Source: an uncultured Alphaproteobacteria bacterium (lineage in GTDB: Bacteria > Pseudomonadota > Alphaproteobacteria > RF32 > CAG-239). Taken from it: a stretch of 64,000 bases of DNA. The stretch covers positions 4,162-68,161 of the forward strand of contig CALXZJ010000004.1 of NCBI GenBank assembly GCA_944393235.1, given 5' to 3'. A program made the position numbers and the translations under genes. The notes below the pieces were generated by a model. That model saw only the letters and a list, made by a program, of their open reading frames with translations, searched no databases and was not told the DNA's origin. This document shows positions 60,686-61,438 of the stretch, piece after piece (the first letter of the stretch is position 1; the number at the start of each line of letters is the position of its first letter).

Positions 60686-61438
60686 TTATAAATTCCAAAC
60701 AATTGAGATTTTACAACTTCCGGCGGCAGTGTCGCAAAAATCACAAACATCCGAAGTATCGGTTAATGTCATATTGTGCAGACATTTTCGGGTACTGTTG
60801 CAACTCTGAGTCCCATAAAGTCCATTTGAGAAAGAATCACCATTTTCATCACCTTCATCTTTCATACGGATATAATATATTTGTGAGGCGTTTTCTTTAG
60901 CAATGTTTATGCAAGTTTGGCAAATTTTTTTGCTTAAAGGAGATTTATCGAGATACAAAGCCAATATATTATAAGGTATGCCGGATTCGGAAACATTACG
61001 ATAAACCCCGATACGATTGTTAAAAATATCGTATATGCGTTGTTCTGATACAACATAAGTCATGCCGTCCGGAATAAGGTTGAGTTTATATAAAATTTCA
61101 TCATACGACGTTTGTGTACCGCTTGTTTCAAACTGCGGCGTGTATTGCAACGCATAGTTTAGAAGGATATTATACGATTCGGAAAATTTATTAAGCTTAT
61201 ATTTTTCCATCGCCTTAGAGTAACCGGCAATCGCCCCAACGGAAAGCACGCCGATAATGGCAAGAACCCCCAACATCTCAACCATACTTCTTCCGCATAG
61301 AGCCGCATCTGCTTGCAACTTTTCTCCTCGTGTACTTAATGTTGTACACGTCGTCGAAAAGTTACGGCGTATCTGCAGCCCTCTGCGCAAGAATGCATCA
61401 AAAGAACTCCCAAAACTGCAAAATAAATGTGTTTTCAC
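60686..61438 (-). CDS. Type IV pilin-like protein, copy 5. The pilin body is open in frame far upstream of the conserved GRSMVEML segment; the start codon is uncertain.
   Basis: Body ...CGRSMVEMLGVLAIIG... and C-terminal CNSTRKCLHNMTLTDTSDVCDFCD. The ATG with RBS (gaggagaaaagttgcaagcagATG) at about 61300 is out of frame with the pilin body, while an in-frame QADAALCG extension is conserved with copy 1. Confidence 0.6.
   Translation of the reverse strand: MKTHLFCSFGSSFDAFLRRGLQIRRNFSTTCTTLSTRGEKLQADAALCGRSMVEMLGVLAIIGVLSVGAIAGYSKAMEKYKLNKFSESYNILLNYALQYTPQFETSGTQTSYDEILYKLNLIPDGMTYVVSEQRIYDIFNNRIGVYRNVSESGIPYNILALYLDKSPLSKKICQTCINIAKENASQIYYIRMKDEGDENGDSFSNGLYGTQSCNSTRKCLHNMTLTDTSDVCDFCDTAAGSCKISIVWNL

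What the first reader, a model, noticed from the sequence alone, without database searches (positions are those of the whole stretch)
61255..61345. In pilin copies 1 and 5 the RBS-proximal ATG is out of frame with the pilin body, while an in-frame upstream extension is conserved
Copies 2, 3 and 4 start at ggagagaatRttATG CGC GAA TGT/AAT GGT AGA AGT ATG GT (MRE(C/N)G|RSMV). In copy 5 (about 61300) and copy 1 (about 13910) a good RBS plus ATG is present: aaaaggaggcaagcagATGtgg in copy 1 and gaggagaaaagttgcaagcagATGcgg in copy 5. In both, that ATG is shifted by one nucleotide relative to the pilin frame. The pilin frame itself stays open upstream and encodes a conserved ...QAD(V/A)ALCG|RSMVEML segment. 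Two readings are possible. Either these two copies use a longer, different leader peptide (a second subclass). Or they are translationally OFF variants in which an indel between the ATG and the GRS codon controls the frame.
Basis: seen in the sequence. Interest (0 to 1): 0.6.

Follow-up and report, generated by a model that had tools for sequence, protein, structure and literature searches.

The report
Hairpin repeat inside prepilin leader peptides
The two flagged ATGs are not start codons: they lie inside a palindromic repeat that many pilin genes of this gut alphaproteobacterium carry, translated in frame, as an unusually long leader peptide; copy 5 has lost 16 bases after its real start codon, and copy 1 is broken further downstream.

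Summary
ATG 61308 (copy 5) and ATG 13900 (copy 1) are out of frame with the pilin body, and both copies share a 24-nt tail encoding QAD(A/V)ALCG.

These ATGs are not starts. They are the codons GCA-GAT-GYG read out of register, inside a conserved element.

In 126 related pilin 5' ends from gut Alphaproteobacteria MAGs, about half have 5-7 aa leaders and half have 19-75 aa leaders. In 44 of 46 long-spacer genes the Shine-Dalgarno-linked ATG is in frame and open (P about 5e-19). The two exceptions are L002 and copy 5.

Copy 5's module is a palindrome of about 108 nt. It folds into a long mRNA hairpin (-56.5 kcal/mol, z -5.9; 14 covarying pairs) that includes the Gly-Arg-Ser cleavage codons. Its 5' half is read in two different frames in different genes. 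It also occurs as an intergenic repeat elsewhere.

Copy 1 starts in frame at ATG 13961 (26-aa leader) but is a pseudogene, with a 152-nt internal deficit. Copy 5 lacks 16 nt after its canonical ATG 61398. Other samples carry a 20-nt deletion, a 20-nt duplication or larger 5' deletions.

Copy 5 is therefore silent, or expressed only from the internal GAGGAG-N5-TTG at 61318.

The parts
61442..61473 (-). Conserved upstream block shared by all five paralogues: TTTAAAATTGC, then A10 (61453-61462), CGGTT and the -10-like TAGAAT (61442-61447). Presumed promoter.
   Evidence: Alignment of the five 5' regions. Poly-A lengths. The consensus sigma-70 scan did not call it.
61396..61411 (-). Canonical Shine-Dalgarno GGGAG (61407-61411) and ATG 61398-61396. 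This is homologous to the start of copies 2-4 and of the in-frame long-leader relatives, but is out of frame here (107 nt before the Arg+1 codon).
61336..61398 (-). 20-codon out-of-frame ORF (MHSCAEGCRYAVTFRRRVQH*) opened by the canonical ATG. Its stop, TAA 61338-61336, lies in the apical loop of the hairpin.
61284..61398 (-). Palindromic leader element, forming a long mRNA hairpin. The 5' arm starts at the AUG, the apical stem is GTGTAC (61349-61344) / GTACAC (61335-61330) with loop AACATTAA, and the 3' arm ends in the GGA AGA AGT cleavage-site codons.
   Evidence: MFE -56.5 kcal/mol, z -5.93, 0 of 200 shuffles. 34 consensus pairs, 14 with compensatory changes. 93% of cells paired against 33-55% in slid controls.
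61316..61329 (-). Internal GAGGAG (61329-61324), AAAAG, then in-frame TTG (61318-61316). This is the only plausible in-frame start left in copy 5 (leader MQADAALCG). It is buried in the 3' arm of the hairpin.
   Evidence: The same call is made in public databases (P0121).
61306..61308 (-). It is out of frame (offset 2), being part of the codons GCA GAT GCG (A-D-A) of the element's 3' tail.
60686..61294 (-). Gly(-1) codon GGA (61294-61292) followed by the intact mature pilin of copy 5 (201 codons plus stop).
   Evidence: dN/dS of 0.19-0.25 against alleles L001 and L002. T4b-like fold for the family.
13959..13975 (-). Copy 1 canonical start: CAGGAG (13975-13970), 8 nt, then ATG 13961. It is in frame and gives the 26-aa leader MNLFNFFSFSSPAHNKRRQADVALCG.
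   Evidence: The same architecture is seen in L003, L037 and L063.
13885..13908 (-). Copy 1's copy of the element's 3' tail. It contains the flagged out-of-frame ATG 13900-13898 and the overlapping in-frame GTG 13898-13896.
   Evidence: This leader has no significant fold (z 0.06).
13412..13985 (-). Copy 1 body, a pseudogene. It lacks about 152 nt (92 + 60) relative to its closest intact relative, which shifts the frame. The ORF is split into 13680-13985 and 13412-13747.
59070..59693 (-). Copy 4, an intact short-leader paralogue (MRECG|RS).
37515..38141 (-). Copy 3, an intact short-leader paralogue (MRECG|RS).
29511..30158 (-). Copy 2, an intact short-leader paralogue (MRENG|RS).

Best explanation
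The genes are type IVb-like prepilins belonging to a very large paralogous family in uncultured gut Alphaproteobacteria. The family has two leader classes. The short class has 5-7 aa. The long class has 19-75 aa (up to about 100 in database entries), is translated from the same SD-ATG position, and is presumably removed at the invariant Gly.

In the copy-5 type, the long leader is encoded by a palindromic repeat of about 108 nt. It is inserted directly after the original Gly-Arg-Ser codons, and its 3' inverted repeat supplies a new Gly-Arg-Ser. The repeat forms a long hairpin in the mRNA. Only an open frame is required of it: its 5' half is read in two different frames in different genes.

Copy 1 has an intact in-frame long-leader start (ATG 13961) but is a pseudogene because of an internal deletion.

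Copy 5 is a long-leader gene in which 16 nt after the canonical ATG 61398 are missing. Ribosomes starting there make a 20-residue peptide and stop in the hairpin loop. Inferred, not shown: copy 5 is a silent or weakly expressed allele. Any pilin made from it must start at the internal GAGGAG-N5-TTG (61318). That site is normally masked by the hairpin, but ribosomes translating the short upstream ORF could expose it.

The element is indel-prone, so strains differ in whether this gene is readable.
For: Shown:
- 43 paralogues are short-leader, 44 are long-leader in frame, and 2 are out of frame. 21 of 22 distinct spacer lengths are multiples of 3, and the binomial P is 5e-19.
- The pilin frame is open for a median of 38 codons upstream, against 13 and 9 in the other two frames.
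- All 87 leaders end in Gly. Long leaders are hydrophilic, with mean charge +3.4 and no hydrophobic run longer than 4.
- At a single locus, L096 has the short leader, L001 has +108 nt in frame, and L002 has +108+20 nt.
- L094 carries a third lesion, a 20-nt deletion. The same-locus alleles L087 and L088 have 5' deletions.
- The 7-nt-loop and 8-nt-loop versions are one element read in two frames, and 22 of 22 instances lie upstream of pilin cleavage sites.
- The hairpin has z -5.9, shows covariation, and the Arg/Ser codon choice covaries with the 5' arm.
- The element core is intergenic in three JGI contigs.
- Copy 1 has an internal 152-nt deficit.
- Mature copy 5 has dN/dS of about 0.2.
- Allele bodies differ by 1.4-2%, yet every allele has a different 5' end.
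Against: - There are no expression data, so whether copy 5 is silent or translated from TTG 61318 cannot be decided from sequence.
- Three independently frameshifted alleles (the window, L002 and L094) all keep the SD-TTG and an intact mature ORF under purifying selection. That would also fit a functional TTG start.
- The paralogues are not independent samples, so the binomial P overstates the significance. The 21 of 22 distinct lengths is the safer figure.
- Covariation in a palindromic mobile repeat may reflect requirements of its own propagation rather than an mRNA function.
- Cleavage of 40-100 aa leaders by a prepilin peptidase has not been shown, and no peptidase or assembly genes were looked for.
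- All comparison sequences are metagenome assemblies.
- The 16-nt difference could be a recombination junction rather than a deletion.
Confidence: 0.8

Rival explanations
1. Copy 5 is a normally functional short-leader gene that starts at TTG 61318 (leader MQADAALCG), as public gene calls have it. On this view the upstream ATG and the 20-codon ORF are a coupling device or irrelevant, and the loss of frame with ATG 61398 has no consequence.
For: - GAGGAG lies 5 nt before the in-frame TTG.
- The exact protein is already called this way (P0121, P0123, P0131, P0001).
- Three independent frameshift alleles keep the SD-TTG and an intact mature ORF, with dN/dS of about 0.2.
- All ten 8-nt-loop elements keep a [TG]TG at this position.
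- The upstream ORF stops 17 nt before the TTG, which suits termination-reinitiation.
Against: - The SD and TTG are base-paired inside a -56 kcal/mol hairpin.
- TTG is conserved because it pairs with the 5' arm, and the 7-nt-loop version has AGG there instead.
- 44 of 46 long-spacer genes keep the upstream ATG in frame, which would be pointless if the internal start sufficed.
- The same locus carries outright null alleles in other samples (L087, L088).
- The resulting leader has net charge -1.
Confidence: 0.35
2. One reading: ATG 61308/13900 is the real start, and a reversible +1/-1 indel between it and the G|RS codons switches the gene ON and OFF.
For: The ATG is out of frame by one position in both copies. 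Indel polymorphism does exist in the leader region among samples.
Against: - The 24 nt from this ATG region to the Gly codon are invariant in length in all 18 aligned elements, including the in-frame genes. None of the observed indels lies there.
- The interval contains no homopolymer or short tandem repeat.
- In copy 5 the SD is 15 nt away. In copy 1 the 'SD' is Arg-Arg codons not conserved in relatives.
Confidence: 0.03
3. The extension is untranslated: a structured 5' UTR or repeat that merely happens to be open in the pilin frame, with every long-spacer gene really starting at an internal codon near the cleavage site.
For: The element is conserved as nucleic acid, not as peptide: it is read in two frames and shows covariation. 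Its core also occurs in intergenic DNA.
Against: - 44 of 46 spacers are in frame and free of stops from an SD-linked ATG, and 21 of 22 distinct lengths are multiples of 3.
- The pilin frame is open about three times further than the other frames.
- The 7-nt-loop version and other leader types have no internal start near the cleavage site.
Confidence: 0.04
4. Copy 5's long leader is rescued by a -1 ribosomal slip on the U-run (ACU UUU CGA), 7 nt before the apical stem. The slip would move ribosomes from the 20-codon ORF into the pilin frame.
For: A run of four U followed by a CGA codon, with a stem 7 nt downstream, is visible in the sequence. A -1 shift there enters the pilin frame. This is my inference from the sequence.
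Against: - It is not a canonical X XXY YYZ slippery heptamer.
- The U-run is explained by pairing with the A-run of the 3' arm.
- The apical stem has only 6-7 bp.
- The other frameshifted alleles, L002 and L094, could not be rescued this way.
Confidence: 0.03
5. The frameshift in copy 5 is an assembly or sequencing artefact.
For: The exact 16-nt-deficient arrangement was seen only in this window. The look-up of its exact protein returned no DNA.
Against: - A clean 16-nt difference outside any homopolymer is not a typical read error.
- Independent assemblies show other, different lesions in the same element.
- The TTG-start protein of this exact sequence is recorded from two contigs in NCBI and ENA.
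Confidence: 0.03

Closest known systems
Type IVb pilins (CofA of ETEC CFA/III, TcpA of Vibrio cholerae, PilS of Salmonella Typhi)
   Same: - The mature size is similar, about 200 aa.
- The class III signal peptide has Gly(-1) and Glu(+5).
- Leaders are longer than in T4a pilins, a trait used historically to define T4b (PMC10191384).
   Different: - Arg is the first mature residue.
- Leaders of 5-7 aa and of 19-75 aa (or more) coexist in one paralogous family.
- There are many scattered copies (5 in 64 kb), each with its own promoter block, rather than one gene inside a machinery operon.
- The long leader is encoded by a palindromic repeat.
- Sequence models do not reach threshold.
Rickettsia palindromic elements (RPEs) and other MITE-like repeats inserted in frame in ORFs
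   Same: It is a dispersed palindromic repeat of about 100-150 nt found inside protein-coding sequence in frame, adding a peptide segment without destroying the gene. The lineage is also alphaproteobacterial (PMC10969869 for RPEs; here).
   Different: - In the sampled genomes every copy sits at one specific place: directly after the Gly-Arg-Ser codons of prepilin genes (22 of 22). RPEs insert in unrelated genes.
- The added peptide is expected to be cleaved off with the leader.
- The element's 3' arm itself encodes the cleavage site.
- The same element is read in two frames.
- No target-site duplication was recognised.
Streptococcus gallolyticus pil1 phase variation by indels in an upstream leader-peptide ORF coupled to a stem-loop (PMC3894217)
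   Same: A short upstream ORF whose reading frame or length is changed by indels precedes a stable stem-loop in front of a pilus gene. Ribosomes on the leader ORF are proposed to melt the structure. Copy 5 has this geometry.
   Different: - In S. gallolyticus the indels are gains and losses of GCAGA repeats, and the stem-loop is a transcription terminator.
- Here there is no simple repeat and no U-tract. The hairpin masks a translation start, and the normal state is a single fused ORF.
- The pili involved are sortase pili there and type IV pilins here.
Neisseria pilE/pilS pilin variation (expressed locus plus 5'-truncated silent copies)
   Same: There are many pilin paralogues. Some alleles lack the promoter, the start and the first codons (L087, L088). 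The same mature sequence is found behind different 5' ends in different strains.
   Different: No evidence was obtained for a dedicated expression locus, for G4- or RecA-dependent gene conversion, or for minicassette structure. Most copies here have their own promoter and start.

Membership tests
Type IV pilin (class III signal peptide) | Leader ending in Gly or Ala immediately before the cleavage site | tested here: met
   All 87 leaders examined end in Gly. Window copies end in ...CG|RS or ...NG|RS.
Type IV pilin (class III signal peptide) | About 20 hydrophobic residues after the cleavage site, usually with Glu at +5 | tested here: met
   R-S-M-V-E(+5)-MLGVLAIIGVLSVGAIAG is invariant across alignment A2.
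Type IV pilin (class III signal peptide) | Match to curated N-terminal methylation/cleavage models (Pfam PF07963, TIGR02532) above threshold | tested here: not met
   PF07963 gives E 0.02-0.08 and 13-15 bits against a cut-off of 21.2. TIGR02532 gives 10-12 bits against 16.3. The Arg at +1 instead of Phe/Met probably lowers the score.
Type IV pilin (class III signal peptide) | 'Lollipop' fold: a long N-terminal helix packed on a beta-sheet head | tested here: met
   [not shown]
Type IV pilin (class III signal peptide) | Prepilin peptidase and assembly ATPase/platform genes in the same genome; processing demonstrated | not tested
   None were seen among the window ORFs. Processing needs experiment.
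Type IVb subclass | Long leader (classically about 15-30 aa) and a large mature pilin (about 190-200 aa) | tested here: met
   Half of the paralogues have 19-75 aa leaders, and the mature length is about 200 aa. The other half have 5-7 aa leaders, so the trait is not uniform.
Type IVb subclass | Pilin gene clustered with its biogenesis genes | tested here: not met
   The five copies are scattered among housekeeping genes (ATP synthase, priA, lolA, a two-component system).
RPE / MITE-like palindromic repeat | Short (about 100-150 nt) non-coding-capacity repeat with terminal inverted repeats, able to form a long hairpin | tested here: met
   The insert is 108 nt, bounded by TTCTTCCGCAAAAG...CTTTTTCCGGAAGAA. 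The hairpin has z -5.9. 93% of cells are paired across 18 copies.
RPE / MITE-like palindromic repeat | Multiple dispersed copies, including empty and filled sites | tested here: met
   There are 22 copies in the sampled loci and 3 intergenic copies in JGI contigs. L096 is an empty site and L001 a filled site at one locus.
RPE / MITE-like palindromic repeat | Target-site duplication flanking the insert | tested here: inconclusive
   Gly-Arg-Ser codons occur on both sides but with different codons (AGA CGG TCT against GGA AGA AGT). The downstream set is part of the inverted repeat.
RPE / MITE-like palindromic repeat | In-frame insertion into ORFs (the RPE hallmark), in unrelated genes | tested here: inconclusive
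   The insertion is in frame but only in prepilin leaders in these genomes (22 of 22). Elsewhere the core is intergenic.
Phase-variable contingency locus (slipped-strand type) | Simple sequence repeat within the ORF whose unit number sets the frame | tested here: not met
   There is no homopolymer or short tandem repeat between ATG 61398 and the Arg codon. The lesions are -16, -20 and a +20 tandem duplication.
Phase-variable contingency locus (slipped-strand type) | Indel polymorphism between closely related strains at the same site | tested here: met
   Alleles differ by 1.4-2% in the body but each has a different 5' end. Reversibility and within-population heterogeneity were not testable.
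Leader-peptide attenuation (S. gallolyticus pil1 type) | Upstream leader ORF followed by an intrinsic terminator that ribosomes can disrupt | tested here: not met
   A 20-codon upstream ORF and a hairpin are present. However, no U-tract follows the hairpin, and no terminator was called on the minus strand.

The most novel reading that the evidence does not exclude
The palindromic leader element is a built-in, mutation-prone translational switch. In its intact form the gene makes a long-leader prepilin. Deletions or duplications favoured by the palindrome break the frame, converting the gene to a state in which a short upstream ORF ends inside the hairpin and only then unmasks an internal SD-UUG. 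Together with slippage of the poly-A tract in the shared promoter block, this would let a common human-gut alphaproteobacterium vary, cell by cell, which of its many T4b-like pilin paralogues are made. It would also mean a selfish repeat persists by carrying its own prepilin-peptidase site, so that its peptide is always cut off.
Probability: 0.15. Interest if true: 0.8.

Novelty: new variant of a known kind. Interest (0 to 1): 0.6.

Why it matters
- **Annotation.** Start-codon calls for this very large pilin family (over 7,800 database relatives) are inconsistent. They include TTG starts, internal Met/Leu starts and long ORFs. The rule found here (SD-ATG in frame, leader ends at Gly before RSMVEML) gives a basis for correcting them and for recognising frameshifted or 5'-deleted copies.
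- **Pilus biology.** Leaders of 40-100 aa built from a repeat would be far beyond the classical range. They pose a direct test of what a prepilin peptidase can process.
- **Genome evolution.** This is a case of a palindromic repeat that lives inside coding sequence at one precise site, is read in two frames, and includes the host's cleavage-site codons in its own stem.
- **Gut microbiology.** Hypervariable 5' ends in dozens of surface-filament genes suggest extensive surface variation in an abundant but uncultured lineage.

Tried and rejected
- **Rfam.** The gathering-threshold scan of the whole window found only a tRNA. The permissive scan of 61200-61720 found nothing. The leader is not a known riboswitch or RNA family.
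- **Metagenome probe.** A copy-5-specific 28-mer against JGI metagenomes gave 0 hits, so strain alleles had to come from exact-protein look-ups instead.
- **Exact-protein look-up.** The look-up of the window's own TTG-start protein (P0121) returned no DNA.
- **Promoter-block regex.** My first strict regex found only 27 of 126 copies and was replaced by direct inspection and looser patterns.
- **Sigma-70 scan.** The consensus scan did not call the conserved TTGC-A(n)-TAGAAT block. With TTGCAA as the -35, the spacer would be only 13-15 nt. A sigma-54 GG-N10-GC reading was checked by eye and does not fit. Its status as a promoter is inferred from conservation only.
- **Copy 1 hairpin.** I tested whether copy 1's MNLF-type leader also forms a conserved hairpin. 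It does not (z 0.06, with no common fold in four relatives).
- **GTG 13898.** I considered this as copy 1's start (AGGAGG 9 nt upstream, leader MALCG). I rejected it in favour of ATG 13961 because the AGGAGG and the GTG are not conserved in relatives, while the upstream ATG is.
- **Old decaying pseudogene.** I considered this for copy 5. It is not supported: the mature ORF is intact and dN/dS is about 0.2.
- **Automatic leader classification.** Window copy 3 was a regex artefact. L012 has a weak SD but an in-frame ATG. L049 (1277) and L069 have lost the start codon.
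Full report
**What is in the window**

Five pilin-like paralogues lie on the minus strand:

| Copy | Coordinates | State |
|---|---|---|
| 1 | 13412-13985 | split into two ORFs |
| 2 | 29511-30158 | intact |
| 3 | 37515-38141 | intact |
| 4 | 59070-59693 | intact |
| 5 | 60686-61318/61438 | intact body |

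All share the mature N-terminus RSMVEMLGVLAI(I/V)GVLSVGAI. They also share an upstream block of about 90 nt: CCCACCAGACTCTTTAAAATTGC-A(10-12)-CGGTTTAGAATGACG...TTTTGCAGTTTTGGGAG.

**Checking the observation**

- Copies 2-4 start GGAGAG-N6-ATG CGC GAA TGT/AAT GGT AGA AGT.
- ATG 61308 and ATG 13900 are at frame offset 2 from the pilin body.
- The pilin frame is open upstream for 51 codons in copy 5 and 40 in copy 1, and encodes QAD(A/V)ALCG.
- The 24-mer GCAAGCAGATGYGGCTCTATGCGG occurs only at these two places, with 0 expected by chance. The two out-of-frame ATGs are therefore one homologous feature.

- In copy 1 an ATG at 13961, 8 nt after CAGGAG, is in frame. It sits at the position homologous to the start of copies 2-4 and gives a 26-aa leader.
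- In copy 5 the homologous ATG (61398, 8 nt after GGGAG) is out of frame. It opens a 20-codon ORF.
- In copy 5 an in-frame TTG (61318) lies 5 nt after GAGGAG. The flagged ATG is 15 nt from that GAGGAG.

**Is the extension translated?**

A protein search found more than 7,800 relatives. Their N-termini are either short (MRECG, MKFYQSG, MHLNQSG...) or carry recurring long modules.

I then fetched 79 loci from about a dozen uncultured gut Alphaproteobacteria MAGs. The selection used conserved peptides of the mature protein, so it was blind to the leader. From these and the window I extracted 126 unique pilin 5' ends.

Of the 93 ends with at least 300 nt upstream:

| Class | Count |
|---|---|
| SD-ATG 15-24 nt before the Arg(+1) codon (short leader) | 43 |
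| SD-ATG 51-225 nt upstream, in frame and open (leaders of 19-75 aa) | 44 |
| SD-ATG out of frame (L002 and window copy 5) | 2 |
| Unclear | 4 |

- Of 22 distinct spacer lengths, 21 are multiples of 3. The binomial P for 44 of 46 is 5e-19. That figure is overstated because paralogues are related.
- The pilin frame is open for a median of 38 codons upstream, against 13 and 9 in the other two frames.
- All leaders end in Gly.
- Long leaders are hydrophilic, usually net positive (mean +3.4), and have no hydrophobic run longer than 4.

So the long extension is, as a rule, a translated leader. The four unclear cases resolve as one regex artefact (window copy 3), one weak SD with an in-frame ATG (L012), and two genes that have lost the start codon (L049, L069).

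**What the copy-5 module is**

The peptide modules ...FLRRGLQIRRNFSTTCTTLSTRGEKLQADAALCG and ...ERPKNGADAQPCLSDVYKNGTRAKRRQADVPLCG are one DNA element: TGCAGATRCGC...GACGTGTAC-loop-GTACACGAG...CAAGCAGATGYG...TATGCGG. Its 5' half is read in two different frames, and a 1-nt difference in loop length (8 against 7 nt) restores the frame.

All 22 instances in about 1 Mb of sampled sequence lie upstream of a pilin cleavage site.

Evidence for a hairpin:
- The copy-5 leader RNA folds into one long hairpin from the AUG (61398) to the Ser(+2) codon (61284). The energy is -56.5 kcal/mol and z is -5.9. The internal GAGGAG-UUG is paired in the 3' arm, and the stop of the 20-codon ORF lies in the apical loop.
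- Across 18 instances the consensus structure has 34 pairs, 14 with compensatory double changes.
- 93% of cells are paired, against 33-55% when partners are slid. The covariation score is 0.33 against 0.07-0.12. None of 500 shuffles reaches it.
- The synonymous choice for Arg(+1)-Ser(+2) covaries with the distal 5' arm: AGA AGT pairs with TTCTT, and CGT TCY pairs with AACGA.
- An invariant U.G and frequent G.U pairs favour sense-strand RNA. A single-stranded DNA hairpin is not excluded.

One locus gives an empty-site and filled-site pair:
- L096 reads MKFYQSG|RS.
- L001 has exactly 108 nt more, inserted after the old and now decayed G-R-S codons. The insert is bounded by inverted repeats and ends in a new GGA AGA AGT.
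- L002 has the same insert plus a 20-nt tandem duplication that breaks the frame.

Other leaders begin with a recognisable short leader plus GRS and then the element (MRENGRS-ERLKS...LCG|RS). Some stack two elements.

A frame-neutral scan of JGI metagenomes with the hairpin core found three contigs where the core sits in ordinary intergenic DNA. So it is a dispersed palindromic repeat that this lineage carries inside prepilin leaders.

Rfam has no matching family.

**Copy 5**

Compared with the in-frame relatives L083, L086 and L082, copy 5 lacks 16 nt directly after the canonical ATG. L083, for example, reads ATG AAACATAATCTTTTTT CATTCTT. That is why ATG 61398 is out of frame.

The mature ORF is intact, with dN/dS of 0.19-0.25 against L001 and L002.

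The same mature pilin (98-98.6% nucleotide identity) occurs in other samples behind many different 5' ends:

| 5' end | Source |
|---|---|
| MRECG, MRENG, MKFYQSG (short leaders) | cluster members; L095, L096 |
| 43-aa in-frame leader | L001 |
| +20 duplication | L002 |
| 20-nt deletion in the 5' arm | L094 |
| Multi-module leader | L090 |
| SD, start, leader and RSMVEML deleted (same chromosomal locus as copy 5) | L087 |
| Promoter and leader deleted (same chromosomal locus as copy 5) | L088 |

The 5' end therefore changes much faster than the body, and the locus tolerates null alleles.

Sequence alone cannot tell whether copy 5 is silent or is translated from TTG 61318. I lean to a silent or weak allele, at about 55:35.
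- Against the TTG: the internal start is masked by the hairpin, and family-wide selection keeps the upstream ATG in frame.
- For the TTG: three independent frameshifted alleles keep an intact SD-TTG and an intact body. The upstream ORF ends 17 nt before the TTG, a geometry suited to translational coupling.

**Copy 1**

Its leader (MNLFNFFSFSSPAHNKRRQADVALCG) is in frame from ATG 13961. It has the same architecture as L003, L037 and L063.
- It contains only the 3' tail of the element and has no significant fold.
- The 'good RBS' before ATG 13900 is the Arg-Arg codon pair AGG AGG, which is not conserved in relatives.
- Independently of the leader, the gene body lacks about 152 nt relative to its closest intact relative. 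That shifts the frame, so copy 1 is a pseudogene.

**What the proteins are**
- Curated N-terminal methylation models score below threshold.
- Gly(-1), Glu(+5) and the hydrophobic helix are all present.
- An AlphaFold model (pLDDT 85) has a 50-residue N-terminal helix and a beta head.
- T4b pilins are the class traditionally defined by long leaders, and leader length is known to vary (PMC10191384).

**Comparison with known systems**
- In-frame palindromic repeats in ORFs are known from Rickettsia RPEs (PMC10969869). Here the repeat is confined to one precise site, includes the cleavage-site codons in its stem, and encodes a peptide expected to be removed.
- The upstream-ORF-plus-hairpin geometry of copy 5 resembles the leader-peptide phase variation of S. 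gallolyticus pil1 (PMC3894217). It lacks the simple repeat and the terminator.

I found no paper on pilins of this lineage.

**Verdict**

A long-leader subclass exists, and copy 5 is an indel-generated frame variant with real polymorphism among strains.

The underlying biology is a palindromic, hairpin-forming repeat translated as a prepilin leader. I rate it a new variant of known kinds.

Noticed in passing
window 61453-61462, 59742-59752 region, 38190-38200 region, 30205-30216 region, 14012-14023 region (poly-A within each pilin upstream block): Every paralogue has a poly-A run inside the conserved TTGC-A(n)-CGGTT-TAGAAT block. In the window n is 12, 12, 11, 11 and 10 for copies 1-5. Across 91 paralogues n ranges from 9 to 13. 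Orthologous loci differ by one A between samples (copy-4 locus 11 against 12; copy-5 locus 10 against 9). This could be promoter-spacer slippage, or it could be assembly noise.
   Followed up: partly
window 45100-45130: A perfect (AC)15.5 dinucleotide repeat lies about 85 nt upstream of the ATG of a glycosyltransferase-like ORF (45215-46357). It is a candidate slippage tract in a surface-polysaccharide gene region.
   Followed up: partly
window 61490-61600, 59760-59900, 30210-30330, 14060-14300: Arrays of REP-like hairpin units (for example GCCGAC-N3-GTCGGC TCATGGGGTGAC GGGGATTGGG, and GGATAC-N5-GTATCC) lie immediately upstream of the pilin promoter blocks. In allele L088 such units are fused directly to the truncated pilin gene.
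   Followed up: no
loci L011, L014, L023, L030, L035, L044, L059, L076 (upstream of the pilin match): In other MAGs the long leaders (up to 75 aa) are built from a different hairpin repeat...LDYRVKPDNDS..., which is CTGGATTATCGGGTCAAGCCCGATAATGACAG. It is sometimes present in two or three tandem units and is always in frame. So the habit of carrying hairpin repeats inside the leader is general in the family.
   Followed up: partly
L087, L088, L094, L095 against window 60000-63100: Downstream of the copy-5-type gene the LolA gene and the next pilin gene are constant. The upstream neighbour differs between samples: histidine kinase, alanine racemase, or other. Synteny therefore breaks at the pilin 5' end. 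Many MAG contigs also end at these genes.
   Followed up: partly
window 13412-13985: Copy 1 is a pseudogene through an internal deficit of about 152 nt, irrespective of its leader. That makes two of the five copies in this window defective.
   Followed up: yes
L093 2040-2290: In a JGI contig the element core is the last unit of a tandem array of related units of about 90 nt (…TTTTTGACGACGTTTGCAATAGCTGTACAC…CGAGGCAGATGCG…) in intergenic DNA. This suggests a wider repeat family.
   Followed up: no
window 14560-14700 and 38870-39350: The large ORFs next to copies 1 and 3 (929 aa and 1317 aa) contain low-complexity repeats: PEPEPEPT runs, and three tandem NKNNPKIDFEGKKPNEFDTDKG units. They may be further variable surface proteins.
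   Followed up: no
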